NCBI RefSeq assembly: GCF_009914755.1
Contig: NC_060939.1
Length of the DNA stretch: 64,000 bases
Reading direction: 5' to 3' (one strand)
DNA from: the human T2T-CHM13v2.0 reference genome, Homo sapiens
In this document: positions 16,011-56,755 of the stretch, piece by piece
How positions within the stretch are numbered: the first letter of the stretch is position 1
How the letters are laid out: every line of letters begins with the position of its first letter
Translations under genes and position numbers: made by a program
The notes under the pieces: generated by a model
The model's input: the letters and a program-made list of their open reading frames with translations, nothing else
Told to the model about the DNA's origin: nothing
The model's database searches: none

Positions 16011-17022
<1,012 letters not shown>

Positions 17023-17059
17023 ATACAGGCAAGTATCATGCTTTCTCACTTCTCTAAAG

Positions 17060-19508: not shown

Positions 19509-19854
<346 letters not shown>

Positions 19855-19937
19855 CTATACTCACATACTGCATTCTTAATACAAAGTTTCCATAAAGTCT
19901 CTGGGCACTTTTAAAATTTAATTAAATTACAGATTGT

Positions 19938-20254
<317 letters not shown>

Positions 20255-20346
20255 TTATGATCAGTGATTTCTTGAGAGTTTTTTCAGGCAAGTTAAAGCC
20301 AGTGCTCACATCTTGATAAAGTTGTGAGTGCCTCCTCTACTCTTAC

Positions 20347-20400
20347 CTCTTCTTGCGGGCCACTGACTACTAGCATAAGGAAGTGATTGTGCCATTTCCC
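20347..20400 (-). CDS. Candidate 54-nt in-frame cassette exon, paralog of the BCL2A1 'Bfl-1S' alternative exon
   Basis: ttcatttcag|GGGAAATGGCACAATCACTTCCTTATGCTAGTAGTCAGTGGCCCGCAAGAAGAG|gtaaga; translates GKWHNHFLMLVVSGPQEE. The recalled Bfl-1S tail begins GKWHNHTPMLV. Confidence 0.65.
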
Positions 20401-21329: not shown

Positions 21330-22260
<931 letters not shown>

Positions 22261-22459
22261 TTTGGATAAAAAAATTTGCAGAATTACCACCATGTACTGT
22301 TTTTACATATACACATGTAAATATATGTATGCAAGATTTTTATGTATATATAAAATACATAAACATACATGTACATATATGTACATATATGTATGCTCAT
22401 ATAAAACATTTTACATAAAACATTTACAAAAACTTTTTTTACAAAGAAGTATTATGTTA

Positions 22460-22685
<226 letters not shown>

Positions 22686-23264
22686 AATAACTTATATTAC
22701 CAAAGCCTTAAAACCTACATTCTTTTACAGGTTCATTTTTGCTACTAAAAACTAGTGCAACAGGAGTCACATGCAATGTGCTTTGGCTAGAACAGTGTAT
22801 TGTGGTAACACAAACCATTTACATTAAGACACTACTTAATTCTGCTATTTACTGCCCAAATTGTCTTTTTCAAATATCATGTCAAAATTACACGAATTTA
22901 TATAGTTGTAGACATGTTCCTAGCAGAAGGGTAAGGGAGGCAGGGGTCTGGGTAAGTGGAAGGAGAAGGCAAGTAGCCCTTTTGGGCTACCAGGGCACCA
23001 GGACCGGGTTCCCTGGGCAATTTGGCACAGGGATTTGAATGCAGGGTGGCCTCAAAGATGGGACTGAGCAGCAGCAGCAACATCAGCGATCCAGAAAGTT
23101 CACAGGATGTGAGCAATACTGTTTTGGGTTCCTTATCTGATATTCCTAAAAAACAAAGTTGCTGTCGTTTTTCATGAAAACAGACTACATAGTTTATTTA
23201 GGTAGATACGATAAACATTTTAATAGTTACACTTGCGCAATTTCATTTTCTAAATGTAAAGTTA

Positions 23265-23562
<298 letters not shown>

Positions 23563-24401
23563 TGAAAAGTTAAAAACAAGAATAAGAGGCATTCTAAACC
23601 ACTTTTGGTCGTGGGTGCTATCAAATTCAAGAAATTTTTTTGTCCAATTAAATTGTTAAATTTAAAACAAACAAGTATAATAGATCATAAGATCATATCA
23701 GCTGTCTTGGGTTCCAATTCTATCAAAAATGCATTATCTAAACTTATTGAAACCAAAATTTCTCCATCTGTGATGTATAATCTTACTAGCACTAAGTAAC
23801 AAGGAAAACATCAATGGCTTTTAATGTATCAGGTTATATTATGATCCCTACATGACCACGCGGTAATGAAACTGACAAATTTTATCAGTAGGATTTTTTA
23901 AATTATAAAAGCAATTCATATTCATGAGAGAAAACTTGGAAATCACAAAAAGTACAAAGCACTTTAAAACAAAGTGCTTCTGTAATCCTACAAAACAGAG
24001 CCATGCCAGTACTTTGGTTAATTCTAAAACTGACTTTTAAAATCAGACACTAGATCTAGACAGTATTTTCTTTTTTAATTCATCATGGGAAAGGAGATTC
24101 AATACTGCCATTATTCAGAATCTGTGTGAAATTCCTCATCTGTAACTGGCATAACGGTCATGTAAGAAATTTGGTCTCAGTTTACAGTTTCACCTCATTT
24201 TAACCTAACATCACTGATAGATTGATTTCATTTAAATTAGTATAACTGAAGTCTTACTATACTGTGGTTCTGTTCAGAAACATAAACATGAATATGGTAC
24301 TGTCCTCCTGCTTAGATTGCTCACAATCTAGACTACACAGACCAAAGTACAAGGTGGTTGTGTTAAATATACTCTAAGAAAGGATATATAAACAGTGATA
24401 G

Positions 24402-24825
24402 TGTGTCCGGAGTTGGTTCCTTCCACCGGGTTCTTGGTCTCGCTGACCAACAATGAAGCTTTGGACCTTTGCGGTAAATGTTACAGCTCTTAAAGGTGGC
24501 ACAGACCCAAAAAGTTAGCAGCAGCAAGATTTATTGTGAAGAGCAAAAGAACAAGGGTTCCACAGCTGTGGGAGGAGACCCGAACCAATTGCCTCTGATG
24601 GTTGGGGTGGCCAGCTTTTATTCCCTTGTCCCCGCCCACATCCTGCTGATTGGTCCATTTTACAGAGTGCTGATTGGTGCGTTTTTACAGAGTGCTGATT
24701 GGTGCATTTACAATCCTTTAGCTAGACACAGAGCATTGATTGGTGCATTTACAATCCTCTAGCTAGACAGAAAAGTTCTCCAAGTCCCCACTTGAGGCAG
24801 GAAGTCCAGCTGGCTTCACCTCTCA
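24402..24825 (-). mobile_element. Solo ERV9-family LTR (LTR12F-like)
   Basis: Minus strand begins TGAGAGGTGAAGCCAGCTGGACTTCC and carries repeated CCAATC boxes; 4-bp TSD ATAG at 24398-24401 and 24826-24829. Confidence 0.88.
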
Positions 24826-24986
24826 ATAGGTTAACATTAAAGAGGAAGTAAACCAAGTTAAAAGTTCAGAACTTCACTCAATAGGTTAACATTAAAGAGG
24901 AAGTAAACCAAGTTAAAAGTTCAGAACTTCACTCAATAGGTTAACATTAAAGAGGAAGTAAACCAAGTTAAAAGTTCAGAACTTCA
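24822..24986. repeat. Three perfect tandem copies of a 55-bp unit
   Basis: ctcaataggttaacattaaagaggaagtaaaccaagttaaaagttcagaacttca starting at 24822, 24877 and 24932. Confidence 0.95.
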
Positions 24987-25814
24987 CAAAGGAAAGAAAA
25001 TCTGCATCGTGCTTGAAGAATAAGGAAAATTTTGGTAAGAGGAAGAGAAAAAAGGGATGAACATCAAATGCCAAAGGACATAAATGTTCATAAAGGTTCT
25101 GGGAAAAGCAAGTAAATCTAGGAAAAAGGCAAATTGGCATTGGACTGCTGAGGACTTCTAAGTATCTTGCTAATCCATTTTTATTCACCAGGCATGATAA
25201 GGACTTCTAATGGTTTTCAAAATTCAAACCTACCCTCAAGAAGAAAACAACTGGCCATTACTGAGGATATTCAGAGAAATGTGCCACAGACTTAAAAATA
25301 AAAAATCCATGATGCTTCCATTGCTAAAGATCTCTCCCACACTTAAGCTTAGCACTTTCTCTTGAAGCTATCTTATGCTCCCACACAGACCACAACAGAA
25401 TTAAAAGAACACTTAGAATTCAGATAACTCAACTTTTTTACTTCTTTGTAACATCCCCTGCCACAGGAACATTTGGCAGTCTTCTGAAGATTATTTCCAA
25501 CAATTTTTTCCAGTAGTCCATATCATCCAAAAACAGCTCTATTAGAAAATCCTTCCTTCTACTAAATCAAAATTTTCCTGCCTCTAATTTACACCTATTA
25601 GTGTAATGATGAGGAGTTATATAAGTAATAATCCTTATTATAGTCCTTCAAATATTCAAAAAGTTCTCTTCCCAAGCTAAATAGGCTAAATAAAACAAGG
25701 TCAAACGTTCTTCATTAGACATGACTTTTAGGTTTGGTGTGAATCTCAACTTCACTTTATTAGCTATGTGACTTTGGGCTTAGCTTCTTTTACTCTAAAA
25801 TGGGGATAACATGA

Positions 25815-26150
25815 CACATTCTACCACATGGATGTACTGTGAAGACATAATGCTAAATAAGCCAGACACAAAAAAAAACAAATATTGTATGATTCTATTT
25901 ATATGAGGTACCTAGAGTGGTCAAAATCATAGACACAGAAAGTAGAATGGTAGTTGTCAAGGGCTGGGGGTCATGGGAACAGGCAATTGTTCTTTAATGG
26001 GTATACAGTTTCAATCGAGGAAGATGAAAGTTCTAGAGATGGATGGTGGTGATGACTGCACAACAATGTGAATGTACTTAATGCCACTGAACTGTACACT
26101 TAAAAATGATTATCATGGTAAATTTTGTTATGTACATTTTACAATAAAAA
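25815..26150 (+). mobile_element. L1MB-like 3' end
   Basis: 'aaatattgtatgattctatttatatgaggtacctagagtggtcaaa...gttctagagatggatggtggtgatg...ctgaactgtacacttaaaaatg'. Confidence 0.8.
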
Positions 26151-26193
26151 AAGAATAGTAAGTATGACAAAATTGTACACTTTAAATGATTTA

Positions 26194-27354
<1,161 letters not shown>

Positions 27355-27468
27355 CTTACACAACACTTGGCATATAAAACATGGGCACATAATAGTGACT
27401 GTAATAGACTTACCAACTATGGGGCCTTGCTTGGCTAAATTCTATTTTTTAAGAAAGTAAGAACCTGG

Positions 27469-28029
<561 letters not shown>

Positions 28030-28559
28030 CCAGCTGATTAGTCTAACACACACACACAAAGAAACCACATTACTTTAAAGTAACATCTCCTTGGTACAGA
28101 AGAGTCTAGAAAACATAAAACTTCCCAAGATGTTAGTATGTTAATCAGTGAATGACTGCCAAACTACTCAGATAAGTGGTGATAAGTACACAAATTGCTT
28201 TATTAACTTAGGCTTATCAGATTAAATTACAGGCAAATTTTACCAATGGCCCTCTACAAAAAGCATACATGAACAAAGAAGTCATGTAATAAATAAACTC
28301 TCAGCAGTGAAGAGCCACAAGTGACAAAAAAGACTAAAAACCACAGAGCTACCTGTCTCTGAATTGGGACATTTATCAACAAAGGTTATTCTTGAGAAGT
28401 CAGTATGAGTTTAAAGCATCTTCATAAACGTATCCAGTGAGCCAGGATGTAGCTTGACATGGGTTTAGGCATATCACTCCCAATGATGGAAAGGAACAGA
28501 AATTTTATCACTAATATTATGGTGAACATTGGTAGGATCAAAAGTCTGGATAAAAGGAA

Positions 28560-29620
28560 ATATGAGAATTTCTCATGAGAAAAATAAGCAGTGTCTAGAA
28601 AGTCCAGACCAAACTGATTCCTTGCAAAATTCAAAATTAGATTAAAAAGAATGTTTGGAAGTTAAGAAAGGAAAAGTGAATACATGGAATCCTAGCTAGA
28701 AGATTCACCGTGAACAAGTTCAACCGAATCAACTGCAATGGTTATTTTCAAAGGTTAGTAATGTAGTATTCTTCGCTGTAGGTGAGAATCTTATAGGCAC
28801 AATATAGCTTAATTATAGTATGGCATTTGACAAAATCTTTCCTAATATCCACATAAAATGTCATATGGGCCTGACAATAATAGACAGAACTAGTTGTTAC
28901 TGAACAACCATAATGTGTGCTGATTAATGGACTGGTGTTAATCTAAAGTGAGTCTAGCTGACTTGCACACTTCTGAGTAATTTATTCTGTCAATATTTTT
29001 ATCAACAATTTGAATGAAGACATAGTAGGTATGCCTACCAAATATAAAGATGACCAAATAGAAAGTGTATTAAATGTCTAAATAAAAACTAACAAAAGGA
29101 AATTTAAAAGCCTTATATTTAATCTAAGCACACCTAAAAAAATAAAAAATAAAAATAAAAGCCTTATATTTAAGCTAAAAAAAAAAAAATCCACTACACA
29201 AAAACAGGATTAGGGAGACTCAGTTTAACATCTTATGTATAAAACATTTTAGAGAGAAGTTGACACTTCTGGTTCATATTAAGCATAAGTAACAGAAGTT
29301 AAAACTGTTAATGAAATATTTGGTTTAAAAAAAAAACAAACCAGCATTTGGCTCATACCCACCACACTCTGTCTGGTCAAATATCATCTAAAATGCTGGG
29401 CACAATGTATAATGACAATGAGCAATTAAGGGTTAATTAAGAAAAAATAACCACGGTTGAAGGATCAGAGAATTACATTATCTAAGGAATGGTTAAACTA
29501 ACTGGGATTATTGACTCTGAAGAAGAGAAGGGAATGCTCACCATGTGTGGCAGGGAGAAAGGGTCAGCAGGGACACGACGGTAGTCTTCAAATATGTGAA
29601 GGGGCCATTCGTGTGAAAAC
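28560..29620 (+). mobile_element. Ancient CR1/L3 LINE reverse-transcriptase relic
   Basis: Degenerate 'ggcatttgacaaaatct' (KAFDKV-like) and 'caatatttttatcaacaatttg' (FNIFINDL-like) motifs. Approximate. Confidence 0.55.
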
Positions 29621-30824
29621 GGGGTTATACTTGGAAAAAGCAAAATACAGTGAGAACAGCATGGGCTATGATGTATAAAGACCCAGATTCAAATCCTGGT
29701 GCCATGATTTACTGTGTGTTATTTGGCTTGGAGACAGATTAGCATCCTTACCTAGAAAATGATACTTACCTCATAAATGTATAAAAATTAGAGGCAAAAA
29801 ATATTTATAAGCTGCCTGGCACAGACTGACACACTGTGATGCACAGTGGTGTTAGTTCTCATCCCTAGACCTTTCTGTAATTCTAGAACAGTGTTTTCAA
29901 AGTGAGAACTGAAACTCATTAATGGGTCACAAAATCAGCTTAGCTGGATAGTAACCAGTATTTTTCTTCTGATGAAACAGAAGGAAAATATTAGAGCACA
30001 CCATTTGTGGCAAACATAATCATAATTTTGTGAAACTTCTGTTTCAGTTATTCATATACATGTGAATAGATTATGAGTTAAAATGTATTTCTTATCATGA
30101 AGTTGGATCCAAGAAAAAAATGTGAAAGTGACTACTGTAGAGCACTATTTTCTATGTGTGTTCTATAAGATACTAGTTCCTTGGGAGCTCGATTAGATTT
30201 AGGAACAAACCATACTCCCTAGAGATTTACTATGTTCAGTACACATTAGCATCTCCAAGAGCCCAGCATTAAAGAAACCTGTTTATCTTTCTTGAATCCA
30301 GTTTTTTCCCACATTTATTCAACTCCAGAACCCACCCACTTTTTTTTCCTACATGGTATTTATTGACATCTTCAGAACTACCACTTTGCAGCATATACAC
30401 TCTGGAGGAAACATTCCTCTAGATGAAAAAGAAGATGCAATGGCTAGAAGTTATAGAAGGTAGATTCTTAGCTTGCTAAGAAGAAAAACATCTCAACTTT
30501 GAATCTTCCTGCCACTGACATCCACCCCCTATAACTTTGACCCTACACACATGCCTCATGCATTTTACATATGATTTATCCAACTTTCAATTCACACAAA
30601 TGTTCTCAGAAAAAGTGTAGGACATCTATAATATCTAGATATGAAGCCAGGATCAAAGCAATAAGCAGGAATCATCTGGTCAAAAGAAACTCCTGGCATA
30701 GTATTTAGGAAGACTTGACAAAGCTTAACAAAGCTCATGCTCAGGAACCACAGCAGCCCAAGACTTAATCGGCTTCTCCAAGTGGACTCAATGTGTTCTA
30801 ATAATACATAATTTAAAGTGGGCT

Positions 30825-31458
30825 TGTTATAAGTAAAGTGTTTATTTAGAAACAGAATGCTTGCTCCTCAGTACTGCAAGGAAAAATCAGCATTTAGACA
30901 AAAAGTGTTTTCAGCAAGGCAATTTTACTTTCTGCAGAAAGGGTGCTCCTCACAGATGAAACAATGGCAACAGCACACCCAAACAAAGGAGAGAAGCAAT
31001 TTTTATCCCTTATGCAGCTTGTCCCTGCTACTGTGTCCTGTCTCCATTGGCTGGAGCTGGACCTCACAATTTAAATTAAACCTGACTGGCTAACAACTTA
31101 AAACTTTCCTAAATAGGGAAAGGCAACAGAGAACAAAGGAAATGAGGAAGTTGCTTGCAAAAGGACTTAGAAAAGTAATAATATTTCCAAATAAGGAAGG
31201 GGCATAGGCTGCGAGCTGGAACGTGCCTGTGAGCATGTCCAGCACAAATATCTTGGTTAAAGTACAAGGACATAGAATATACTTATTCCCTTATATCTAA
31301 CAGCTACATAGGATAGGGCTTAATGAAGAGTTATTAGCACAGAGCAGAGGAGGCTGGAAGGAAGTTAGTCTTTAAAAGAAACTATTATTTCTAACACTTA
31401 ATGATTTATTCTTTAACAAGAAGGGAAATTTTTAAGAGGAAACTTTTTACTTTCTACA
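30825..31458 (-). repeat. 3' LTR (LTR10-family)
   Basis: TGTAGAAAG...TAACA on the minus strand, preceded by PPT AGAGGAGGGAAT; CCAAT at 31046-31050, TATA-like GATAAAAA near 31000-31007, AATAAA at 30841-30846. Confidence 0.9.
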
Positions 31459-34400
31459 ATTCCCTCCTCTTGATTTTGTATTTTTCTTTAAACCTTTTTT
31501 TTGTTTAAACGTGTTTTGGCTTAATTGTTTTGCTTGAGTTTTTAAAAGAAAAGGTTTTTATGGCTGATGAAATGTGAGGGCAACAGGGATAGCCAATCGA
31601 ACTAGAGAGCAAGTACTGCTTTAATTATTTGGCAGAGTGCCCAGCAAAGGTCCTTTATAATACCACCATACATCTGCTTGGGGATGAATAAGGGTGGACT
31701 GATGGGTCAGCTTTTGGAAGTGCCTGACCTTACTGCATCCTGTTAAGTCTCCAAGGAATGCCAAATTTTCCCCTTGTCATTGGAGACATGAGATAAAATT
31801 GGTCTTGGAAGATGGAGGCTGAATGGCCCTTGGGGTACTGCACTTTAGGAAACAGCAGAGAGAGTTTGGCACAGTTTACTATCCTAGGCTGTAGGATTTT
31901 GAAAAAGAGCTACCATGCAGTCCATGTCCTGTTAATTAGAGGACCATCTGAGTGGAAAGGAGACAACCTGAGCCTCTGGCCTACTGTGTGCACAAGCATA
32001 ATAATGGCTTTTATTTAGAGTGCAGAGGGAAAATTTAACCCATTTTAGCTAGGCATCTACATCCTGATACCCTGTCTTAATTGCTATGGTTTGCCTTAGA
32101 TTTTTTACTTCTACTACAGAGACTTTGGTTTTGACACTATGTTTGGGAGGAGTGATTGATGGAGAGGTTGAAGGAGCAATAAAGCTTATTTTAAAAATTC
32201 CTTTAGGATCCTTTTCTGAAATGTCAGTTCCCATATTATGACTTAATGAAGGGGAGGAGTTTTCAGATGTTGCAATAGTAATAGTAAGCTGTATAGGATT
32301 ACACTGGTTATGTTGACAGCTAGAAAGAGCAACTCTTTTGGTGAAATGGATATATGGTTTTAAGGACAAAGACCTCTGGAAGCAGTCCACCTTAGACTTC
32401 TAGTGTTCTATAGGATATTAGACCAAGCAGAATATAGAGATTTTGTTTTAGAGGGACAAAAGTCCAATTCCTACCAATTAATATAGCTACTATTCTCTGG
32501 ATTATTAGTATCCTTATAGGAATTTATTATGTCTTTCTAAACTAAGGAAGTCCAAGAGGGACAGAGATATTTTTCTGAAGTAGTAAGCTGTGTTTGGTTA
32601 TTTAAATCTTCACAAGGTGTAACTAAACAGGCATCAAAAGTAATAACTTCAGGTGAGTTAGATCTAGTTACATTAATAATAAGATGGGGAATAGTTAAAG
32701 GGAAGAAAAAGAAAAAGATAAAGTTTTCTTAGCCTTAATTTGGTAGGGCTTGACCTTGGAACAATGTCCCATGATTGTGAAGGTGATGACACTTTCTTGA
32801 CTCGGGTATGATGTGTCCATCCTTTTTCTGCTGTGCGAAAGGCAGTCTCGGTGGTTAGCAGCACAAGGTAGGGTCCTTCCCAGGCTGGCTCCAGTTTTTC
32901 TTCTTTCTATCCTTTGATGAGGACGTGGTCCCCAGGCTGGTGTTAGTGTACTGGAAATTCTAGGGGTGGTACCTGTGCTAAAAGACTTTTAGTTCTGAGG
33001 GAAGGGAAAGTGGAAGTATATAATTTCTGAGAAACTGATCTTTTGTTTTAAATGTGGGGACATCAGCAGTGGAATGTAAGTAAGGTAACCCATAGGTATC
33101 TTTTTGACTTTATAGTCCGTAGTGCCTTTTTGCTAAGAAATTTCTTTTTCCTTGTTTTTACTTATGCTGTCTCTGAGGGACCCTTTGGGGCTCCTTATTT
33201 TGTCAGAACTCTGCATATCCTGGGGCTTGAGGCCCCATGGTGACGCCTCCCGCTCCACCCCGGCTCAGTGCTGCCTAGGGGACGCTGCAGCCCCACCACC
33301 TCTTAAGGTCTTGGCCTCCTTCTGGCCCTCACCACTCCCACGCATTGAGGCCTTGGGGATGAGGGGCCTTGTGATTCACCCGGCTACCCTGGACCTTGCT
33401 CCTCCCTGAGACCCCGCCATCTGGCCCCTGGCCTTGGGCTGGGCTGTCTGTCTAATGGTTGCCCGGCCCCCTCCCCCACACAGGAAGTGTCTGTCTGTGG
33501 TTAGGTCCTCCAGCCGGCTCGCACTGCAGCCTCTATAGGAGTGGCTGGAGGTGAAAACTCATTGGCATTAAGCCTGAGCTTAGAGGGCCCCGGCCTGGGT
33601 TCTTTGATGCAGTTGGAACAAGATTTTTTTTTTTTAATAAGGTGTTTGGATAATATTTCTTTTTGGTTTAGCAATATTCATTTTCCTTTTGAATTTTTTT
33701 AGCACCTATTTTTTAATCTTTTAATGTAGGTAAAAATCTATATTCTTATGCCTCCTTATAATTCTTTTACTAAAAGTATATTTTACTTTCTTTACATACT
33801 TTGCACATAAACTGTTTAATAGTTTTATATTCAGGATGGCTAAAAACTTTTAAATTATACAATATTTCTTGCATAAATTCCCTTTTATAACATTTTTTTC
33901 GACTTTCACAATCTTTAACATGCCTCAACTTTTTGACTACCTTTTACACTATTTCTCTCCCGTTTTACCTTCTGTGACTTTCTTTGATCTCTGTCTCTTT
34001 CAGTCTTTCACTTATTCTCTCCCTCTAATTTGGGCTCTTTTTCTGTCATCCCGTTTCCTCTTTCTCTTACACTTAGTCTTCTGGGCTGGGTGGGATCTGC
34101 ATGGCCACAGTCCGGGCCACCGCCGCCGGCCTAGCAGCTAGGCAGATAGACGCCTGCCCCAAGTTGCATGAGTCATGCCCCTTCGCCTCCTTTGCTCTCC
34201 TCCCGGCACCCGTCCCCGCCCTCTTCCACACAGAGCCAGGCTGGGGAGAGGGACCCACCCTCTGGCGCGCCTGGCTGCCTGGCTGCATGGCACAGGCTCC
34301 TGGCCCCGGTGCGCTCATTCTCTCCCACTCGGCTCCAACTTGCAGGTGTCCGTGGCCAGCTAGCCTCTGAGGGTGGCAGGACGCACCCGAGCAGCACGGA

Positions 34401-35139
34401 AGGTGCGGGGCTCGGGGGCCAGCAGCCTGGGTGGCTCTGGCTGGCTCGGCCGGGAGTGAGGAGAGTGTCTCAGCCACCACCGCTCTGCCAGGTGCCAGCG
34501 ATCCACAACAATGTGGAGCCACGTTCGCTGCTCTTGCTTTCTCTGACTTCCTTTCCTAGTTTCTCTTTCTTCTCTGCTGCTCTTTCCCTTGCCTCTTTCT
34601 TCCCCCAAGAAGAGGGGAAAGGGAAGTTTTGAACATTTTTCCTATGACCGGAAGTTTCTGTGAGGTTCAATCTCCCCCTAATGGGGATTTTTCACCTCTT
34701 TTTAACCTCCAAGACACCTCGACTAAGGAATACTTCACCACCCCCCACCCCCACCCCCGCGGCTTTTCTTTCCTTAGTCCTAAGGAATGCTTTACCTTGG
34801 TATGTCCCAACCAAAGAATGCTTCACTGCCCTGTGGCTTCTTTTTCCTTAGTCCTGACCACCAAGGAAGTATTTTACTGGCTCGCCTGGCATTTCCTTTC
34901 TTGGTCTGTGCAGAGTTGCCTGGTCCAGGTGGTATGTGAGGATCTTTTACTCCAGGTCACCAGCCGGTTTCTTTCCACATTGCTGAGAGTCCAGTTTATT
35001 TGTCATAACTGGTGGGTCTCGATTCCTTACCCTGAGGCCGCTACAACAAGGCAGTGGGGCGCCTTCCTCATGAGAGAGGACCAGAGACCCACCCTCCCAC
35101 CCCCGGAGGAGAATGGCTCCCTGTACAGGCCACCGCCAT

Positions 35140-35760
35140 TGTTACAAGTAAAATGTTTATTTAGAAACAGAATGCTTGCTCCTAGGTACTGCAAGGAAAA
35201 ACCAGCATTTAGACAAAAAGTTTTTTCAGCAAGGCAATTTTACTTTCTGCAGAAAGGGTGCTCCTCACAGATGAAACAATGGTGACAGCACACCCGAACA
35301 AAGGAGGGAAGCAGTTTTTATCCCTTATGCAGCTTGTGTCCTGTCTCCATTGGCTGGAGCTGGACCTCACAATTTAAATTAAACCCGACTGGCTAATAAC
35401 TTAAAACTTTCCTATATAGGGAAAGGCAACAGAGAACAAAGGAAAAGAAGAAGTTGCTTGCAAAAAGACTTAGAAAAGTAATAATATTTCCAAATAAGGA
35501 AGGGGCATAGGCTGCCAGCTGGAACGTGCCTGTGAGCATGTCCAGCACAAATATCTTGGCTAAAGTACAAGGACATAGAATATACTTATTCCCTTATATC
35601 TAACAGCTACATAGGATAGGGCTTAACGAAGAGTTATTAGCACAGAGCAGAGAAGGCTTGAAGGAAGTTAGTCTTTAAAAGAAACTATTATTTCTAACAC
35701 TTATGATTTATTCTTTAACAAGAAAGGAAATTTCGAAAAGGAAACTTTTTACTTTCTACA
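35140..35760 (-). repeat. 5' LTR (LTR10-family)
   Basis: Near-identical to 30825-31458 and followed on the minus strand by the PBS-Ile-like sequence. Confidence 0.9.
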
Positions 35761-35942
35761 GGCTGATGAGTGCAGCTAATCCTCATTATTATAAGCATCA
35801 CTATTATCATCACTTGCAAGAGCCATGTGACAATATTTAGATGATTCTGGGTTCTTTTAAAGTGCATACATACTCAGGATTCCTTTGGGAGGATGCAATT
35901 TCACATTTATATGAAAAACTGTCACTACCACAGTCAGCTCTA

Positions 35943-36928
<986 letters not shown>

Positions 36929-37899
36929 CAGTGCTAAATGCATACATGGATTATCTTACTAAATTTTCATAACTCTATAGAGGTAAGTGCTATCATTATT
37001 TTCTCCATCATAGAGGAAGAAAGTGAAGCTCAGAATAACTTGCTCAAGGTCATACAGGCCTGGGCAAACCCAGGGCCTGAATCCAGCAAAGCTCTTAACT
37101 ACCTCAGAACACTGCACAGTTCGAGCCCTGCAATACTACAGTCTATGAATGATTTCGATTTCACTAAGTTAGAAGCTTGAATTTCAACAGAGACATTTTA
37201 GCTAAAAGGTAAAATTTTAAAAAGGATGAATTAAGAGAATTTCCCACAGACATCTTTATAATAAAATGAGGGGAAAAGCCTCCCATGTCCTATTTATGAA
37301 AGTGATATTAAGGTGTGGGTCACAATTTCATCAAGAAGTGGCTTATGACAATACAGCTTTGGTTTAGGTATTAAAATAGGACTCTTTTCTGCCCATAGGA
37401 GGACATGGAAATGAAGGATAGATGTGATAAATGTCAATTCAGAGCTCTGCAAAATGCCAGACTCAATTCTTGTTTTAAAATATCAGAGCCAGGGCTCTTG
37501 TTTCACCCTTGATTCTTCACACAAAACACCACCATCCTCTGACCTCTTCACACAGAGCAAGCTTTACCCCACTACCTAAAGGGGAGTGATCCACATGGTC
37601 TCCCCATCCACGCTAGAAATTGATCCCAAACACCAACCGCTGCATAGACGTCGGCGACTTTGGTCTGCACCCCCCGAACTTGGTGATACCTCATCAAGCC
37701 AAACCCCTCCCCAACATCCAAAATGCCCAGACCAGCATCCGAAAGCTGGTCTCCTATACAAAGCAGAATCCCTGCCTACAAAGCAGTTTCCCACCTCCGA
37801 CTCCTCCCCACGGCGAACAGCCCTTCTGGATCCAACCAACCCACCAACCCCAATAGGGCCCAGCACCCAGAGGGTCCACAATCCAGAGAAGGAGCTACA

Positions 37900-39200
37900 A
37901 GCCCTGTACTTGCAAGCCTCGAACCCCCAACTCCAACTGACCTCCCCTCTGCCAGAGCAAGACCACGAGTACCCGCCGAGAGCGGACCTGGCTGGCTACA
38001 CAAAGCCAGGCGCCCGACCAGAGGGATCCTCCGGGACGTCCTCCGCCACCGGGGCGTCCCCGCCCAGCCCCGCCCGGCGCCCGGCGCTCACCAGCTCTCC
38101 TCCCCCTCCTCCTAGCCTGACAGACGCTCCAGGTCGTCTAGCAAGCCGCCCTCCCCCGCCGCCAGCAAGAAGGTGGCGTCTCGCAGCTCCTCGTTATTCG
38201 TCCGCCTTGGGTCCATCCGGCCCCGCCGCCCGACTTTGCGCTGAGACCCAAGGGGAAGCCCCGAGGGGACCCCGCGCCGTAGGAGGGAGTGGAGGAGCCG
38301 GCGAACCGCGATGGAGCCGGGGCCCAGCACAGCGCGAGCGGCTCCTCGGCTGTTCGTGCTGCTTCCCCAGCTTCTTCACCGGCACCTGCAGCTTCCGCAC
38401 CTCCTGGTCCGCGTTCACGTTAGAGTTAACGTCCTCCATCCCGGCCCCGCTGCCTCCGCCGCCCGCGGCCCTCTCGCTCTCGCAGCAACAAGGGAAGAGC
38501 CGGAGGAAAGAGGCGTCCACGCCGCTCACTCCAGCCGAGGCCCCCGCATATAGCAGGGCCAGGCCCCGTCGCCAGGGTTCCCCCAGCGCGGGTCCCGAAG
38601 CACCGCTGGCCACAGATGAACCGCCTCCTCAGCGCAGGTCCGGGATTCGGGGAGGCAGCGCCAATATCCGGTCTCTGCAGCCATCTTCCCTCCGTCCCTC
38701 CGCCCACCGAGGGTCGGCCCTGTAGGTGACCTCAGAGCGTCGGGGATGGGCGTGGCCCCGTCGGGCGCTAAGAAGACCTAGCGCAGAGAGGACCGCCGAG
38801 CTCCCGACGGGGCGGGGCCAGGTGTGTGAGGGGCGGGGATTGGACCCGGAGGGGCGTGTCTGGACTGCCGGCGGAAGTGGAACGCGGCCTGACCTGCGAC
38901 GGAAAGCCACTGCAAGCCCGGAGGCGAACAGAAGGCATTCCGCGAGCCGGGCTGAGTTGGTGAACACGGTCCTCGTTCACCCCGCCTATTGGTCTGGGCG
39001 TGTGGGGTATTCTCCACCCACTTATACGGCGTGTGGGACCGACGGGCCCGTCCTGCCCGGCTCCGGTCCGGATCTCGAGTAGGCGCTCAATGGGATTCGG
39101 GGAGACGTAGTTTACTTTGTTCAGCAAATATTTAACCGATGCCTATTTTAATGGGAGATTGTTTCCGCTGGCGGGAGCCTCAGAGACCGCCTGTGTCCTT
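37900..39200. promoter_or_regulatory. CpG island, bidirectional promoter of ST20 / ST20-MTHFS / ST20-AS1
   Basis: High CpG density; GC boxes (ggggcggggcc near 38808, ggggcgggg near 38830); ETS motif GGCGGAAGTG near 38870. Confidence 0.88.
38092..38439 (-). pseudogene. Decayed copy of SLAIN2 exon 1 coding sequence, serving as the ST20 5' exon
   Basis: ATG at 38439: [35 protein letters not shown] (SLAIN2: [35 protein letters not shown]). After frameshifts, [38 protein letters not shown], then TG|gtgagc donor at 38092. Confidence 0.9.
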
Positions 39201-39294
39201 TAAGAAACCCGAATTTCAGACAGTTAAGAGAGGTCTAAGGTCAAAATAATAATCATAATTTCTTCTTACTGGCCAGATACTATGCTAAGCCCTT

Positions 39295-40365
<1,071 letters not shown>

Positions 40366-40877
40366 CAGTGATCCAGTTCTATTACACCTGGGTGTGGACT
40401 CATGCCACGACTGATTTGCTTCTACCCTTTAGCTTTTCTAGTGCCTTAGTTTCCTTGCCTAGAATATCCTGCCTGCCATAGCTGATTCGTTTTCTTAAAA
40501 CCCGTACTCGCTCATTCATTCAGGAAACCTCTTCCTGAAAATTCCACAAAAATCTAATTATTCTTTGTATTCTAGCATTACCCGAGCCATAGTTTTCAAT
40601 AGGTGTTTGCACTTTTTAAAAAATTGCATTATTTTCTAAAAATTATTTTGTTTTTGTCTGTTTACTTGATTTAAAGACACCATTTTTGTTTACCATGTCT
40701 AGTACACTGACACAGTGGATGCTCAATACTTGGTTTGTTGAAAGTTAAGTAGAATGTAAGTTCTTACAGGCCAAAGACCAGGTAGATGTTTATTCATAGC
40801 AAAAAAAGTATTGTGTTAAAAGTTTGCTGGCTAACTGTAAGTCGAGTATTTTCCTAACTATACAGACCTAGTCAAAG

Positions 40878-42177
40878 TGAGAGGTGACAGCGTGCTGGCA
40901 GTCCTCACAGCCCTCGCTCGCTCTGGGCGCCTCCTCTGCCTGGGCTCCCACTTTGGCCAGCTTGAGGAGCCCTTCAGCCTACCGCTGCACTGTGGGAGCC
41001 CCTTTCTGGGCTGGCCAAGGCCAGAGCCGGCTCCCTCAGCTTGCGGGGAGGTGTGGAGGGGGAGGCGTGAGCAGGAACCAGGGCTGCGCGCAGTGCTTGC
41101 GGGCCAGCGCGAGTTCCGGGTGGGTGTGGGCTCGGCGGGCCCCGCACTCGGAGCGCACGGCCAGCCCTGCCGGCCGGGCAATGAGGGGCTTAGCACCCAG
41201 GCCAGCGGCTGCAGAGGGTGTGCTGAGTCCCCCAGTAGTGCCGGCCCACCGGCGCTGCGCTCCATTTCTTGCCGGGCCTTAGGTGCCTCCCCGCGGGGCA
41301 GGGCTCGGGACCTGCAGCCGGCTATGGCTGAGCCTCCCCGACGAGCACCGACCCCTGCTCCACGGCGCCCAGTCCCATCGACCACCCAAGGGCTGAGGAG
41401 TGCAGGCGCACGGCGCGGGACTGGCAGGCAGCTCCACTTGCAGCCCCGGTGCAGGATCCACTGGGTGAAGCCAGCTGGGCTCCTGAGTCTGGCGGGGGCT
41501 TGGAGAACCTTTATGTCTAGCTAAGGGATTGTAAACACACCAATCGGCACTCTGTATCTAGCTCAAGGTTTGTAAACACACCAATCAGCACTCTGTGTCT
41601 AGCTCAGGGTTTGTGAATGCACCAATCCACACTCTGTATCTAGCTACTCTGGTGGGGACTTGGAGAACCTTTGTGTGGACACTCTGTATCTAGCTAATCT
41701 AGTGGGGACGTGGAGAACCTTTGTGTCTAGCTCAGGGATTGTAAACGCACCAATCAGCGCCCTGTCAAAACAGACCACTGGGCTCTCTGTAAAATGGACC
41801 AATCAGAAGGATGTGGGTGGGGCCAGATAAGAGAATAAAAGCAGGCTGCCCCAGCCAACAGTGGCAACCTGCTGGGGTTGCTTTCCAGAGCGTGGAAGCT
41901 TTGTTCTTTTGCTCTTTGCAATAAATCTTGCTGCTGCTCACTCTTTGGGTCCACACTGCCTTTATGAGCTGTAACACTCACGGGAAAGGTCTGCAGCTTC
42001 ACTCCTGAGCCAGTGAGACCACGAACCCACCAGAAGGAAGAAACTCCGAACACATCCGGACGTCAGGAGGAACAAACTCCGGACACGCTGCCTTTAAGAA
42101 CTGTAACACTCACCGCTAGGGTCCACGGCTTCATTCTTGAAGTCAGTGAGACCAAGAACCCACCAATTCCAGATACA
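40878..42177 (+). mobile_element. Solo LTR12C (ERV9)
   Basis: TGAGAGGTGACAGCGTGCTGGCAG start; GC-rich U3; CCAATC repeats; end ...ccaattccagataca; TSD AAAG at 40874-40877 and 42178-42181. Confidence 0.95.
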
Positions 42178-42474
42178 AAAGAATGTATTTGTTTGCGAAC
42201 ATAATTGTCAAGTAATATATATTATCTGTATAATGCACATCTAAATATCATTGCTGTTTCGGACCAGTCTGAACATGTTGCCAGAGGGTTGAAAATCATG
42301 ACTACTGGCCGGGCGCGGTGGCTCACGCCTGTCTGTAATCCCAGCACTTCGGGAGGCCGAGGTGGGCGGATCACGAGGTCAGTAGATAGAAACCATCCTG
42401 GCCAACATGGTGAAACCCTGTCTCTACTAAAAATACAGAAATTAGCTGGGCATGGTGGCATGCACCTTTGACTA

Positions 42475-42633
<159 letters not shown>

Positions 42634-43100
42634 CTACTTCATGTATAGAAGTTCTCACTTGCGTTTAATGCTTTGTGAAATAGATTCCAACTAGTCAGTG
42701 TCTGTAAGGAGAACCCTTCCAATATACTCCTTGAAAAGAGTAGTTCACTGGACATAGGAAGTTAGCACTAACGTTTGGGGCAAGGAGAGCTTGTTGTAGT
42801 GTGGAACAATGAATTAAGAATCGTAAAGCCTGATGTCGGGTTCTAGCTGTAGCATAAATGTGCTTGCCCTGATCACTTGTCTCTTAATCTCTGGTCCTTA
42901 ATTTAGAATATGTGAGTTGGAGGATCTCCAATATCTCTTCCAGGACCAAAAAGTAAAGGATTCTGATGAGTCCCCGTGGTTGCAAAACATAAGAGTAAAT
43001 ATACTTAAATATATAAAGTTAATAGTAGATAGATATACTTGGATTTTTTAATTCAGTTGCCTTACTCAATATCTTACCTTTTTCATTTGATAAATATTGA

Positions 43101-43394
<294 letters not shown>

Positions 43395-43424
43395 TAGGAT
43401 GGTCTCGATCTCCTGACCTCGTGA

Positions 43425-43939
<515 letters not shown>

Positions 43940-44552
43940 TGAGCCACTGCGCCCAGCCTACCAAATCCATTCTTTAAGCAAGTCATGCTGGCTCTGCATT
44001 CAAAATATGTCTTATTACTTCCCAGTACCTCCACTGCTGCGACTCTATTCAAGTCGCCATCTTCTCTTGTCTAGATTACAGTGGTACTGTTTTAATGAGC
44101 TATTCCACTTTGCTACTTACAGAATCTTGTGTACACGGCAACCAGATGATCCTTTGTGTAAGTCACATCAGGTCACTCTCCTGCTCAGAATCCTCCAGTT
44201 GCTTCCCAACGTATTTCAGAGTCTTTTCCCTGGCCTATAAGGCTCTGGATACTTGGCAACTTCCGCAAGTATCTCAATAAACCACCCTTCCCCTTCTCAC
44301 TGTATCACACTGGCCTTCCCGATGTTCTTCAAAGAAGCCAAGCATGTTTCTACTTTAGGAACTTTGCACTTGCTTTTCCATCTATTTAGCATCTGTTCTT
44401 CCTCCACATTGTCATGTGACTGACTCCCTCACTTCATTCCGGTCTCTGCTCAAGTATCACCTGAATTCACTATCCTCATTATGATGATTCTCCATAAAAT
44501 AGCATCCCTATCCCCCATCCTCTTAATTGTTTCATTTTTCCTCAGACACATC

Positions 44553-44650
44553 TTTCTTTCCTTCCTTCCTTCCTTCTTTCCTTCCTTCATTCCATCCTTC
44601 TTTCCTTCCTTCCTTCCTTCTTTCCTTCCTTCCTTCTTTCCTTCCTTCCC
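44553..44650. repeat. (TTCC)n-like simple repeat
   Basis: Read directly. Confidence 0.9.
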
Positions 44651-44895
44651 CTTTCCTGCCTGTCTCTTCTCAATAGAATGTGAACTTCATGAGAACGGAG
44701 TTCAGTTACATTCCCAGTGCCTACAACAGTGCCTAGTACATGCTGAGTGCTCAATAAATGTTTTTTGAATGAGTGAATGGATTTAGGTTAAGTGAAGCCT
44801 CCTAAAAGAGAATTTCAGATAATATGGTTATATCTTAAGTCCTTGAAGGGGAAATTTGCAATTATTTTGAATGGCTGACTTTTTTTTTATTTTGA

Positions 44896-45036
<141 letters not shown>

Positions 45037-45186
45037 TGAGTAATTTTTGTATTTTTAATAGAGACAGAGTTTCACCATGTTGGCCAGGCTAGTCTCAAAC
45101 TCCTGATCTCAGGTGATCTGCCTGCCTCGGATTCCCAAAGTGTTGGGATTACAGGAGTGAGCCACTGCGCCCAGCCGAATGGTTGA

Positions 45187-45218
<32 letters not shown>

Positions 45219-45220
45219 GA

Positions 45221-45424
<204 letters not shown>

Positions 45425-47752
45425 TGATCCACCCACCTTGGCCTCCCAAAGGCTGGGATTACAGGCGTGAGCCACCACACCCGGCCGGTTGACTTTTACA
45501 ATTATATTTTTCCCTTCCAAAAGAGCAACATGTCATACTATATATGTCGTCCTTAAAACTAGGTCACTCTCCACCTCCTGAGAGCCAACAGCCCTTAGGA
45601 GTTGCTGAGGAGAGAGTATGAGGACAAGAATATTTCCTTTCTATCCTTAACCTTGCCAGGATCTTCCTCTTTCTGGTGAACTATGATACCCTGTCCTCTC
45701 TGGTGACTCAGAAGCGTTAGAGCATTTTTTTTAAGTCACTGTAAATGTGACTGTTGTATAGATACAAGAACTGTTATATAGATACAGAGCTAGTAGGTGT
45801 CTAAAGTATGCATCGCAGTTAGCCCAACTAGCTTTTCAGGGGTTGTCTTTTATGATAGCCTTGCTTTCTTACTGGAAGAGGGACTGTCTTCTTTTCTAAG
45901 CAGGTGTGGCCATTTTCATAACTTGCTCCTACATGCATGTTAGCGCTTAGCAAAATTCCTGACAAAGTGGAAAATATTACAAGCCACTAAAAGCATTTAG
46001 AATGAAAAACTGTTACTCAATGGCTTAAAGATATTTAGCCATTCTAAAATCCTAAATCAAAGTGTGTGTGTGTCTGTCTGTCTGAGCACATGCTAAAAAG
46101 TAATTTAGAAATTACTAGACATAGAAATATTTGCATTTCCTTAGAAAATGCTCACTCCTTTGACAAAACCTTTGCTATCCAATCCATCCATTTTTTAAAA
46201 TAACAGATCATTTCACTAGACGGTCTGTTCATTTAATCTTCATGGGTACAGATGGTCAGGTATTTTCTATTTATCCTCTTTCATTTATTCCTTACCAGCA
46301 TCCTTCCTCCAGATGTGCCTCCCTCTGGTCTATCAAAGGGCCTCTTCTTCACTGTCTTGGCACAATGCAATTTTACAAAGGAATCCCAGGAACCTTAAAG
46401 GTTAGGTATATAAGAATTGAAAGCTTGGTGGCAAAAAGAAAGGGGAGTTTCTTAGGGGGATTCTGTCTAGACGGTGGTCCCCTACCACACTGTTGGGGGG
46501 CATATATTATATAGATGTAGGGGTGGGTAAGTCTGTGATCAGAGCAGAGGGTGAACAGGTTCTTGAACTGTTAGGAAGCTGCTGTCTTACCCAAAGTGAA
46601 ACAAATACCTTGTCTTTCACCATTTTTCTGGCAGGAGATGGAAAAATAAGATTCTTAAATAACATCTACTATTTCTTTTTTTTTTCTTTAGTATATCAGT
46701 AGGACAGTGAAGTTGGAAAAGTGGAATATGAACCACTTCTGAATGTCTTTGATGTTTTAGAGAAAGTACTATTCGAAGATGGAAGAAAACATACTAGAAA
46801 TAATCCAAATCTCCAAGTCAATAAAATAAGTCTCAATAATCTGCCCTAGGATTTAAAATATATTATTCTGAGTATTGACTTGGAGATGCAATGGAGAGAG
46901 TAGATTATAAATAGAAACTTGTATCAAGCAAAAGTAAATTAAGCTGCCATTAAGATACTTATATAATTAGCCTTCTAAGAAGTTGAGCGAATTCTATTTC
47001 TGAGTCTTTGGGCACCCCTGGAGTATTACACAGACAAGGACATCATCAACTATTCAATTTGACCAAGTATGTCTACAAAGTTACTTTCTGTCCATCATCC
47101 TTCTTATGTAGACAAAGTTATATGTGCCCTGGAAGTTTAATTCTGTAAATATCCAGGTCTCCAAACTGGCCCAGTAATAATAGTAACAGCTATTGACCAC
47201 TTTTATGACACGTAATAATTCATTTAAAACTCACCATAGTCTTTAGAGGTAGCTGCTGTTACCATCATCATCTCCATTTTACAAATGAAGAAACTGAAAC
47301 ACAGAGAGGTTAAATAATTTCCAGTCCCATAGCCAGAAGGTAGTGGAGCTGAATTTGAACCCAGCTGATCTGACTTCAGAATTGCGCTCACAATCTTCTT
47401 TGGCCCATGAACATGATGAGTTCTCCATTCTTTTACTTAAGAAAGTATTAATACCTAGTTAGCCACCCTCTGGGGTAGGGATTGAGGAACAATGTTGAGA
47501 ACTTAAGGGTCATTGCCTTTGTGATACCCAACAACTCAATCTTCTTCCTCTAAGAGCAAGTTTGCCAGTTTTGATGTCTCAGCACCTCTGGAATCCGCAC
47601 TGAAGGAATCAGTTCCTTAGAGAGGAAGGCAGTTCCTGGATCTCTTGTTCGAAAGTTGGCTGTGTATTTGGGCAGTACTCCAGCTACTGGAGAGATAGGT
47701 AGGAAAGCCGGGAGACCCATCAGTCAGCAGTTTGCTAAAGTGAAGTTTCAGT

Positions 47753-49620
<1,868 letters not shown>

Positions 49621-50100
49621 GCTGCAAAAATAACATTCTCATTCACCAGTCTCACTCAGTTGTTGGAGAAATTACTTAATTTTCAAAATTGTGGGGTAAG
49701 ATGTGTAAGATCTATGCACAAAGCTATTTATTATGGTATTATTGCAATAGCAAAAGACTGAGAGCAACCCAAAATTATCAGTGTGGGACTGGTTTTAAAA
49801 AACTATGATACATCCACGTGATGGAGGACTATGCATCTATGAAAAGGAAAGAGATGAAGATCATGTAGCTCCAGGATAACTGGTTCAGAATGGTGCTTAT
49901 AGTATGCACCTTTAGTACAAGAAGCAGGAAGGGACATGAAAATATATACATATATACTTATGTTTGTAAGAAGCTATGATGAGAAGATAAACCCAAAATA
50001 AATAAAAATGGTAAACAAATGGAGAAGGAGGGCATAGAGTGAAGGGCATAGAAATAGTCCTATGGAGAAAAATAGGGAGGGGGGTGGGGCAGGATTGCAA

Positions 50101-56755
<6,655 letters not shown>

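What the first reader, a model, noticed from the sequence alone, without database searches (positions are those of the whole stretch)
37500..38700. The SLAIN2 copy is a genomic duplication, not a retrocopy: promoter capture
Seen: SLAIN2 similarity ends at ...EES-TG|gtgagcg, a donor followed by GC-rich intron-like sequence. I found no exon-2 sequence, poly-A tail or TSD, and the CpG island continues upstream. The CDS has frameshifts, an in-frame TAG at 38112-38114 and prolines in the coiled coil, yet the CpGs and donor persist. Inference: coding function was lost while promoter and splice function were retained. Much of ST20 intron 1 and the upstream flank may be SLAIN2-locus derived.
Basis: partly seen in the sequence, partly recalled or inferred. 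Interest (0 to 1): 0.72.

Follow-up and report, generated by a model that had tools for sequence, protein, structure and literature searches.

The report
ST20: gene stitched from SLAIN2, BCL2A1
The human ST20 gene is stitched from a 35-kb copy of the start of SLAIN2 (chromosome 4), an Alu repeat at the seam and a 10-kb copy of the end of neighbouring BCL2A1, likely joined in a primate ancestor about 35-50 million years ago; it shows a gene built from borrowed parts, though no benefit is shown.

Summary
Observation confirmed and extended. Window 22,686-57,232 is a collinear genomic copy (89% identity) of chr4:48,286,4xx-48,317,640. It holds 22 kb of SLAIN2 upstream DNA, exon 1 and 8.5 kb of intron 1, but no exon 2. 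It is not a retrocopy. A 5'-truncated Alu without a target-site duplication lies in the seam between the blocks and supplies exon 2. The copied CpG island has stayed unmethylated (10 of 129 CpGs deaminated, against 67 of 120 outside) and holds the annotated ST20, ST20-MTHFS and ST20-AS1 starts, so promoter capture holds. 'Splice function retained' does not: both annotated first exons use other donors, and survival of SLAIN2's donor is expected by chance (p 0.3-0.6). Selection is not shown. ST20-like predicted proteins occur in catarrhines, while the BCL2A1 tail is mammal-wide. The direction is therefore BCL2A1 to ST20, opposite to a review's wording. The ST20-BCL2A1 link is in print; the SLAIN2 origin was not found in my searches. 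It is a three-part variant of 3'-truncated duplicate/fusion genes.

The parts
12705..22448 (-). Copy of the BCL2A1 3' part: intron 1 minus its first ~0.9 kb, the last exon and ~2 kb downstream (donor chr15:77,821,705-77,832,662)
   Evidence: non-CpG K2P 0.087 +- 0.004 over 7,843 columns
13794..14077 (-). ST20 last exon = BCL2A1 last exon (acceptor, coding tail with a 1-nt insertion, 3' UTR, poly(A) signal)
   Evidence: 13 mismatches in 283 columns; 27 of 28 residues identical to the BCL2A1 tail before the frameshift
22459..22683 (+). 5'-truncated Alu (S-type by recalled motifs) filling the seam between the BCL2A1 and SLAIN2 blocks; no flanking direct repeat
   Evidence: non-CpG divergence 11 of 138 columns
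22579..22656 (-). ST20 exon 2, an exonised antisense Alu (56-nt or 78-nt form); carries the ATG at 22,623 of the 79-codon ST20 frame and of ST20-MTHFS
   Evidence: gene table
22686..57232 (-). Genomic copy of the SLAIN2 5' region (chr4:48,317,640 to ~48,286,4xx)
22686..38091 (-). Copy of the first 8.5 kb of SLAIN2 intron 1, enlarged by later insertions
30825..35761 (.). LTR element with two LTRs and 4-bp flanking repeat GGCT, present only in the copy; used as an internal clock
   Evidence: LTR-LTR K2P 0.043
37988..38041 (-). Annotated first exon of ST20-MTHFS, in SLAIN2 intron-derived DNA; its donor CAG|GTCCGC reads CGG|GTCCGC on chr4
   Evidence: gene table
38085..38094 (-). SLAIN2's own donor (CTG|GTGAGCG, phase 2), unchanged but not used by any annotated transcript
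   Evidence: gene table
38092..38439 (-). Decayed SLAIN2 exon-1 coding sequence (3 frameshifts, stop at 38,112-38,114); first 13 codons without amino-acid change
38401..38701 (-). Annotated ST20 first exon = SLAIN2 5' UTR plus 13 codons; donor GAG|GTGCGG, phase 0 to the SLAIN2 ATG, also present on chr4
   Evidence: gene table
37950..39100 (.). Copied CpG island (123 CpG, GC 0.70, o/e 0.88; chr4 141, 0.73, 0.88) with YY1-like motif 38,677-38,687, GC boxes 38,817 and 38,838, CCAAT 38,843 and 38,992 (motif labels recalled)
37720..39803 (+). ST20-AS1, lying wholly in SLAIN2-derived DNA; the two ATTAAA hexamers near its end are not on chr4
   Evidence: gene table
38702..57232 (-). Copy of ~22 kb of SLAIN2 upstream DNA, with later Alu and LTR insertions and a ~6.5-kb deletion
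4080..4341 (-). MTHFS exon 2, reached in frame by the ST20-MTHFS readthrough (15 Alu-derived codons in place of 39 MTHFS codons)
   Evidence: gene table

Best explanation
ST20 is a three-part chimeric gene: promoter, first exon and start of intron 1 are a genomic copy of SLAIN2, exon 2 is an Alu in the seam, and the last intron, last exon and poly(A) site are a copy of BCL2A1, likely laid down together in one complex insertion just upstream of MTHFS about 35-50 million years ago. Shown: the two blocks, their ends, the Alu between them, the decay of the SLAIN2 frame and the unmethylated history of the island. From annotation: the island holds the starts of ST20, ST20-MTHFS and ST20-AS1. Inferred: replication-based template switching copied 11 kb of BCL2A1 from 60 kb away and 31 kb of chr4, and an Alu cDNA was caught at the joint. 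Because the joint fused two first introns, the product had a promoter, donor, acceptor and poly(A) site from the start. Direct use of SLAIN2's donor (phase 2) on BCL2A1's acceptor (phase 0) would have given a truncated SLAIN2 N-terminus. That frame then decayed, and annotated splicing uses other donors and the Alu exon. The island most likely persists because CpG islands with their factor sites resist methylation on their own, so the transcripts may be largely by-products. Selection is not shown.
For: Collinear chr4 chain over intron and upstream DNA. BCL2A1 chain ending at 22,448, Alu from 22,459 to 22,683, SLAIN2 chain starting at 22,686. No flanking direct repeat at the Alu, and each side matches its own donor. 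Similar divergence of the blocks, non-CpG K2P 0.089 +- 0.004 and 0.098 +- 0.003. Of 23 Alus inside the SLAIN2 block, 3 are shared with chr4 and carry J-type motifs; 20 are private. The LTR pair inserted later is only 0.043 apart. CpG deamination is 10 of 129 in the island against 67 of 120 outside (p 3e-17) and is symmetric between copies, 10 vs 7. Predicted ST20 proteins with the Alu-derived start and the frameshifted BCL2A1 tail come from orangutan, mandrill, two macaques and colobus (5 of 8 hits). The stretch beyond 57,232 is single-copy or old repeat in the two pieces tested, so it looks native.
Against: The blocks differ slightly in divergence (Fisher p 0.036), which allows two events or later gene conversion of the local copy. 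The seam is A/T-rich, so a decayed target-site duplication cannot be excluded (a gapped 14-of-16 resemblance by eye). The pre-insertion site could not be rebuilt: no continuation of the flanking L1 fragment was found in the window (6 continuations tested). No outgroup DNA, CAGE or methylation data were available, so promoter activity rests on annotation and CpG decay. Ages use recalled primate substitution rates.
Confidence: 0.72

Rival explanations
1. Same parts, two events: a local partial duplication of BCL2A1 and the SLAIN2 insertion happened at different times, and the Alu was already at the end of the first block or inserted later at the A/T-rich joint.
For: Block divergences differ at p 0.036. 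Gapped resemblance of the two Alu flanks. The copy gained 20 private Alus, so this region accepts Alus easily.
Against: Three ends meet within 11 and 3 bases. Neither donor has an Alu at the matching place. The divergence gap is small and within what regional rates or local conversion could give (inference).
Confidence: 0.3
2. One reading: selection kept the promoter and the SLAIN2 splice donor while the coding sequence decayed, so the captured promoter is useful (for ST20 or as a second MTHFS promoter).
For: CpGs retained. The 50 nt around the ATG and the used donor have 1 mismatch, against 35 of 299 in the rest of the exon. The first 18 residues are unchanged in two other copies from unnamed records. 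The last exon is closer to BCL2A1 than its introns are (p 0.014).
Against: No annotated transcript uses that donor. Its survival has p 0.32-0.63 by chance. The proximal promoter is the most diverged stretch (K2P 0.24). The exon similarities are expected from constraint on the donor genes alone, and the 50-nt window was chosen after looking. The ST20 start codon is missing in 2 of 5 non-human predicted ST20 proteins. RefSeq calls ST20 non-coding, and upstream ATGs precede its frame.
Confidence: 0.25
3. A processed (retrotransposed) SLAIN2 fragment or unspliced pre-mRNA retrocopy.
For: Only exon 1 is present, and an A-rich tract lies at the 3' end of the block (it is the Alu's tail).
Against: 22 kb upstream of the start site is copied collinearly with shared old repeats, which no transcript of SLAIN2 would contain. 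There is no exon-exon junction.
Confidence: 0.01
4. The chr15 sequence is the donor: BCL2A1 took its tail helix from HCCS-1/ST20, as a review words it, or SLAIN2 took its promoter from chr15.
For: Sentence in PMC8157266 citing Ko et al. 2007.
Against: The same tail is in BCL2A1 of rhinoceros, bats, hippopotamus, dugong, camel and cats (named rows among 27 hits). ST20-like proteins came only from catarrhines. ST20's start codon lies in an Alu. SLAIN2 is whole on chr4, while the chr15 block is cut at both ends and frameshifted.
Confidence: 0.02

Closest known systems
3'-truncated duplicate genes that keep the ancestral promoter and fuse to downstream sequence (SRGAP2C, ARHGAP11B, NOTCH2NL-NBPF, GTF2IP1/4 with GATSL2 promoter; Dougherty 2018, PMC6169893, passages read)
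   Same: Incomplete genomic duplication carrying promoter and first exon; fusion transcripts into neighbouring or other duplicated sequence; new splice sites; open frame rarely kept.
   Different: Far older (89% identity, under the usual 90% cut-off for segmental duplications, recalled). Almost all donor coding sequence is lost. It has three sources, one on another chromosome, and an Alu in the seam is itself the middle exon.
HCCS-1/ST20 sharing the BFL-1 (BCL2A1) tail helix (Ko et al. 2007 J Cell Sci 120:2912; title seen only in reference lists; paper not held)
   Same: ST20's last exon encodes the BCL2A1 tail (27 of 28 residues). The BFL-1 alpha-9 helix alone kills cells when over-expressed (PMC3379997, passages).
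   Different: Here the duplicated unit is mapped as 9.7 kb, dated and polarised BCL2A1 to ST20, opposite to the wording in PMC8157266. The promoter is traced to SLAIN2. HCCS-1 = ST20 is a recalled alias.
Alu exonisation from the antisense right arm (recalled)
   Same: Two acceptors 22 nt apart at the poly-T end and a donor inside the element.
   Different: The Alu marks a rearrangement junction rather than an ordinary intronic insertion.
Template-switch (FoSTeS/MMBIR) complex insertions and retroelement-cDNA-bridged rearrangements (recalled)
   Same: Several templates, no long homology at the joints, a 5'-truncated retroelement without target-site duplication between unrelated sequences.
   Different: Germ-line, fixed and about 40 million years old, so junction signatures are blurred; the mechanism is inferred only.

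Membership tests
Genomic partial duplication (3'-truncated duplicate gene with fusion) | Intron and upstream DNA copied collinearly | tested here: met
Genomic partial duplication (3'-truncated duplicate gene with fusion) | Ancestral start region kept, downstream exons missing | tested here: met
   annotated start 38,701 aligns to chr4:48,308,477, 265 nt before SLAIN2's ATG; no other SLAIN exon on chr15
Genomic partial duplication (3'-truncated duplicate gene with fusion) | Transcripts splice into foreign downstream exons | tested here: met
   gene table exons mapped to Alu, BCL2A1 copy and MTHFS; the transcripts themselves come from annotation
Genomic partial duplication (3'-truncated duplicate gene with fusion) | Expression pattern follows the donor gene | not testable with these tools
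   no expression data
Segmental duplication in the strict sense (>1 kb, >=90% identity; recalled) | >=90% identity | tested here: inconclusive
   SLAIN2 block 89.3%, BCL2A1 block 90.9%, both without gaps counted; lower with gaps
Processed pseudogene | Introns removed, no upstream DNA, poly(A) and target-site duplication | tested here: not met
Alu-Alu recombination-mediated duplication | Alu at the matching breakpoint in donor and acceptor | tested here: not met
   no Alu at chr4:48,317,640 or at the BCL2A1 breakpoint
Alu-cDNA-bridged junction | 5'-truncated Alu exactly between unrelated sequences, without target-site duplication | tested here: inconclusive
   position and truncation met; no ungapped repeat of 9 nt or more flanks it, but a decayed one cannot be excluded
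Promoter under purifying selection | Substitution rate below neutral in the copy's lineage | tested here: inconclusive
   pairwise rates are not below background; no outgroup to split the branches
Protein-coding new gene | Conserved start codon and evidence of translation | tested here: inconclusive
   frame open in 5 catarrhine predictions, start codon absent in 2 of them; no proteomics available

The most novel reading that the evidence does not exclude
A complete, spliceable gene was born in one step when an Alu cDNA bridged a chr4 template and a local BCL2A1 template. It put the exon for BFL-1's membrane-damaging tail helix under a housekeeping CpG-island promoter. The protein is made from SLAIN2's own start codon: with the 78-nt Alu exon it opens a 103-codon SLAIN2-Alu-BCL2A1 frame. 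The same promoter gives MTHFS a second start with a swapped N-terminus.
Probability: 0.15. Interest if true: 0.8.

Novelty: new variant of a known kind. Interest (0 to 1): 0.58.

Why it matters
It gives the full ancestry of a named human gene reported as a tumour suppressor. None of ST20's three exons arose from plain non-genic DNA, so it should not be counted as a de novo or orphan gene. It reverses a printed statement on where BCL2A1's unusual tail came from. It is a clean natural experiment on CpG islands: one moved to another chromosome stayed unmethylated for about 40 million years after its gene died. It has a practical side too. ST20's last exon is 95% identical to BCL2A1's, so 3'-tag or short-read signals for ST20 may include BCL2A1 reads (inference; one chimpanzee database protein already looks like a mosaic of the two).

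Tried and rejected
Retrocopy: rejected.

Alu-Alu recombination at the ends: rejected, no Alu at either donor breakpoint.

A shared young Alu at 52,636 and at 51,471 suggested by the automatic chain: rejected on alignment as independent insertions. These columns, and paralogous matches at 21,000-22,660, 47,752-48,048, 51,199-51,456, 55,590-55,917 and beyond 57,215, were dropped before the counts; still contained three of these Alus.

One L1 split by the insertion: no continuation found.

A third donor for 57-64 kb: not seen in two pieces; the stretch from 64 to 73.7 kb was not examined.

A 10-kb search of the left flank returned only Alus and was uninformative; a repeat-poor piece then revealed BCL2A1.

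PDB search and the protein atlas gave nothing for the ST20 last-exon translation.

Selection on the first 13 codons or positive selection for helix-breaking changes: numbers too small (0 changes in 13 codons, 5 in the next 22; pN/pS 0.52 over the exon).

Literature: ST20+SLAIN2 gave 1 unrelated clinical paper (listing only); SLAIN2+segmental duplication 0; ST20-MTHFS+duplication 2, one read as a table row only; HCCS-1+cervical cancer suppressor 0; ST20+orphan gene+primate 0; ST20+de novo gene 8 irrelevant; ST20-AS1 25 expression-signature papers (listings); ST20+BCL2A1+MTHFS 3, one read in passages, no origin discussed.

Full report
OBSERVATION. The window is human chr15 (hub note). On the minus strand, 38,439-38,092 is a decayed copy of SLAIN2 exon-1 coding sequence followed by GTGAGCG. 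Against chr4 it has deletions of 2, 12, 2, 1 and 24 nt, a TGG>TAG change at 38,114-38,112, and L20P and L31P. A genome search with 36-40 kb found one non-Alu paralogue, at chr4:48.307-48.311 Mb (40 of 22,489 candidates scored). The Pfam SLAIN search gave 10 matches, on chr4 and chr13 only. The next chr4 exon is at 48,336,872. That the chr4 gene is SLAIN2 and the chr13 gene SLAIN1 is recalled.

EXTENT OF THE SLAIN2 COPY. Blast of the window against 200 kb of chr4 gave a collinear minus-strand chain from window 22,686 (chr4:48,317,640) to 57,214 (48,286,411). Alignment extends the far end to about 57,232. The copy holds about 22 kb upstream of the start, exon 1 and 8.5 kb of the 27.7-kb intron 1. 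Identity is 89.3% over 19,552 columns. After three mis-paired Alus were also removed, non-CpG K2P outside the island is 0.098 +- 0.003.

A search with 13,300-15,900 hit chr15:77,823,311-77,826,583 at 87-88%. The gene table places BCL2A1 there, and the Bcl-2 domain maps to its exon 1. The chain runs from window 12,705 to 22,448 against 77,821,705-77,832,662, in the same orientation and about 62 kb away. It starts about 0.9 kb inside BCL2A1 intron 1; non-CpG K2P is 0.087-0.089. ST20's last exon (13,794-14,077) is BCL2A1's last exon, with 13 mismatches in 283 columns and a 1-nt insertion that extends the frame into the former 3' UTR; 27 of 28 residues before the shift are identical.

THE SEAM. 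Between 22,448 and 22,686 lies a 5'-truncated Alu (22,459-22,683). Neither donor has an Alu at the matching place. No ungapped direct repeat flanks it, and each flank matches its own donor. ST20 exon 2 (22,579-22,634 or 22,656) is this Alu read antisense. ST20 is therefore SLAIN2 5' module + Alu + BCL2A1 3' module. The two pieces of 57-64 kb that I tested are single-copy or old repeat, so the simplest reading is a 44.5-kb composite insertion 0.5 kb upstream of the MTHFS start. MTHFS keeps its own island (CpG o/e 0.87).

AGE. Of 23 Alus found in the SLAIN2 block, 3 are shared with chr4 and carry J-type motifs (26,208; 51,194; 55,927, the last by its place in a chained match only) and 20 are private. 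Subfamily motifs are recalled and noisy, but the two shared copies measured diverge 0.135-0.169 from a local profile and the private ones 0.028-0.105. A two-LTR element inserted only in the copy has LTRs 0.043 apart (26 of 621 columns), less than half the block divergence. Predicted ST20 proteins with the Alu-derived start and the shifted tail come from orangutan, mandrill, two macaques and colobus. They are 5 of 8 hits; the others were a human model, a chimpanzee BCL2A1 model and an unnamed BCL2A1 fragment. These are gene predictions, and the search is annotation-limited, so absence from New World monkeys is not shown. With recalled rates (about 0.05 per lineage back to the simian ancestor) the age is about 35-50 million years.

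PROMOTER. The annotated ST20 start (38,701) aligns 265 nt upstream of SLAIN2's ATG. A YY1-like motif and GC boxes are shared with chr4 (labels recalled). In 37,950-39,100, 86 CpGs are shared; of 129 chr4 CpGs only 10 read TG/CA on chr15, and 7 go the other way. Outside, 17 are shared and 67 of 120 are deaminated, 69 the other way (p 3e-17). Both islands have thus been unmethylated in the germ line for most of their history. This does not show selection: the proximal promoter is the most diverged part (K2P 0.24), and islands resist methylation through their own sequence (established knowledge).

SPLICING. The SLAIN2 donor at 38,092 is intact, but p is 0.32-0.63 for that by chance, and no annotated transcript uses it. 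ST20 exon 1 ends at 38,401 on a donor inside the coding sequence that SLAIN2 also has. ST20-MTHFS exon 1 ends at 37,988 on a donor whose CAG exists only in the copy. SLAIN2's donor is phase 2 and BCL2A1's acceptor phase 0, so the first chimera would have made SLAIN2's 129-residue N-terminus plus five residues. Two copies from unnamed records share L20P, N28H and the first frameshift but not E19V or L31P, so decay began early. The 38,401 donor is phase 0 to the SLAIN2 ATG. With the 56-nt exon 2 that ATG opens a 36-codon frame overlapping the ST20 start, which would repress it. With the 78-nt exon 2 it opens a 103-codon frame that includes the whole 79-codon ST20 frame. That the second RefSeq transcript pairs this first exon with the 78-nt exon is inferred from the gene table, which lists no other first exon. 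A human database model also reads the 78-nt exon in this frame (P0001). A 52-codon upstream frame precedes both. ST20-MTHFS replaces the 39 codons of MTHFS exon 1 (residues 1-39 of structure 3HXT) with 15 Alu codons. That this removes ATP-binding residues is recalled, not tested.

MECHANISM. I commit to one complex, replication-based insertion with an Alu captured at the joint (0.72 for the whole account; the anatomy alone is near certain). For: three ends meet within 11 and 3 bases, there is no target-site duplication, the ages are similar, and the Alu is among the older private ones (11 of 138). Against: block divergences differ at p 0.036, the seam is low-complexity, and the empty site could not be rebuilt. 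Two events are the main rival.

KNOWN WORK. Dougherty 2018 (PMC6169893, passages) defines 3'-truncated duplicates that keep the ancestral promoter and form fusion transcripts; ST20 works like these. The ST20/HCCS-1 link to the BFL-1 tail is in print (Ko 2007, title only, seen in reference lists). PMC3379997 (passages) reports that the BFL-1 alpha-9 helix alone induces apoptosis when over-expressed or added as a peptide. PMC8157266 (passages) says BCL2A1's helix came from duplication of HCCS-1 sequence. The data here reverse that: the tail is in BCL2A1 of rhinoceros, bats, hippopotamus, dugong, camel and cats, while ST20 depends on an Alu and a primate-age duplication. I could not read Ko 2007 itself, so it may give the direction differently. 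The SLAIN2 origin was not found. The library lacks most subscription papers, I opened no supplements, and self-alignment tracks or pseudogene catalogues may already list it.

VERDICT. Real, and richer than reported: a three-part chimeric primate gene with a captured CpG-island promoter. New variant of a known kind; interest 0.58.

Noticed in passing
window 30,825-35,761: Two-LTR endogenous retroviral element, present only in the copy, 4-bp flanking repeat GGCT, LTRs 0.043 apart; related elements at 76-91% elsewhere. The family label (ERV1 class, primer site like tRNA-Ile) is recalled, not tested.
   Followed up: partly
window 40,878-42,177: 1.3-kb GC-rich solo LTR with flanking AAAG, absent from chr4, 2.2 kb upstream of the ST20 start; many full-length relatives at 82-89%. 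Looks like LTR12C (recalled); could act as an enhancer or promoter.
   Followed up: partly
window ~50,217-51,199: A solo LTR (LTR5-like, recalled; flanking GAGCCC) sits inside a chimeric old Alu whose halves match two chr4 Alus 6.5 kb apart. This points to an Alu-Alu deletion in the copy followed by LTR insertion.
   Followed up: yes
window 52,636-52,914 and chr4:48,292,144-48,292,423: Independent Alu insertions at almost the same site in the two copies, with different flanking repeats.
   Followed up: yes
window 22,686-57,232: The copy gained 20 private Alus in 34.5 kb, about twice as many as the chr4 original over the same interval.
   Followed up: no
window 38,843, 38,878, 38,992: The copy has CCAAT at two sites and an ETS-like ACTTCC at one site where chr4 reads otherwise; which side changed cannot be told without an outgroup.
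   Followed up: partly
window ~39,766 and ~39,779: Two ATTAAA hexamers just before the ST20-AS1 end are not on chr4, so its poly(A) signal may be new.
   Followed up: partly
protein P0009: A chimpanzee 204-residue 'BCL2A1' entry mixes BCL2A1-type and ST20-type features in its last exon; likely a transcript-assembly chimera of the two 95%-identical exons, or gene conversion.
   Followed up: no
window 12,434-12,690: DNA-transposon fragment (MER7/Tigger3-like, recalled) ending about 15 bases before the left end of the BCL2A1 block.
   Followed up: no
window 24,402-24,935: 534-bp insertion in the copy that is not an Alu and includes a repeat of the 44 bases next to it.
   Followed up: no
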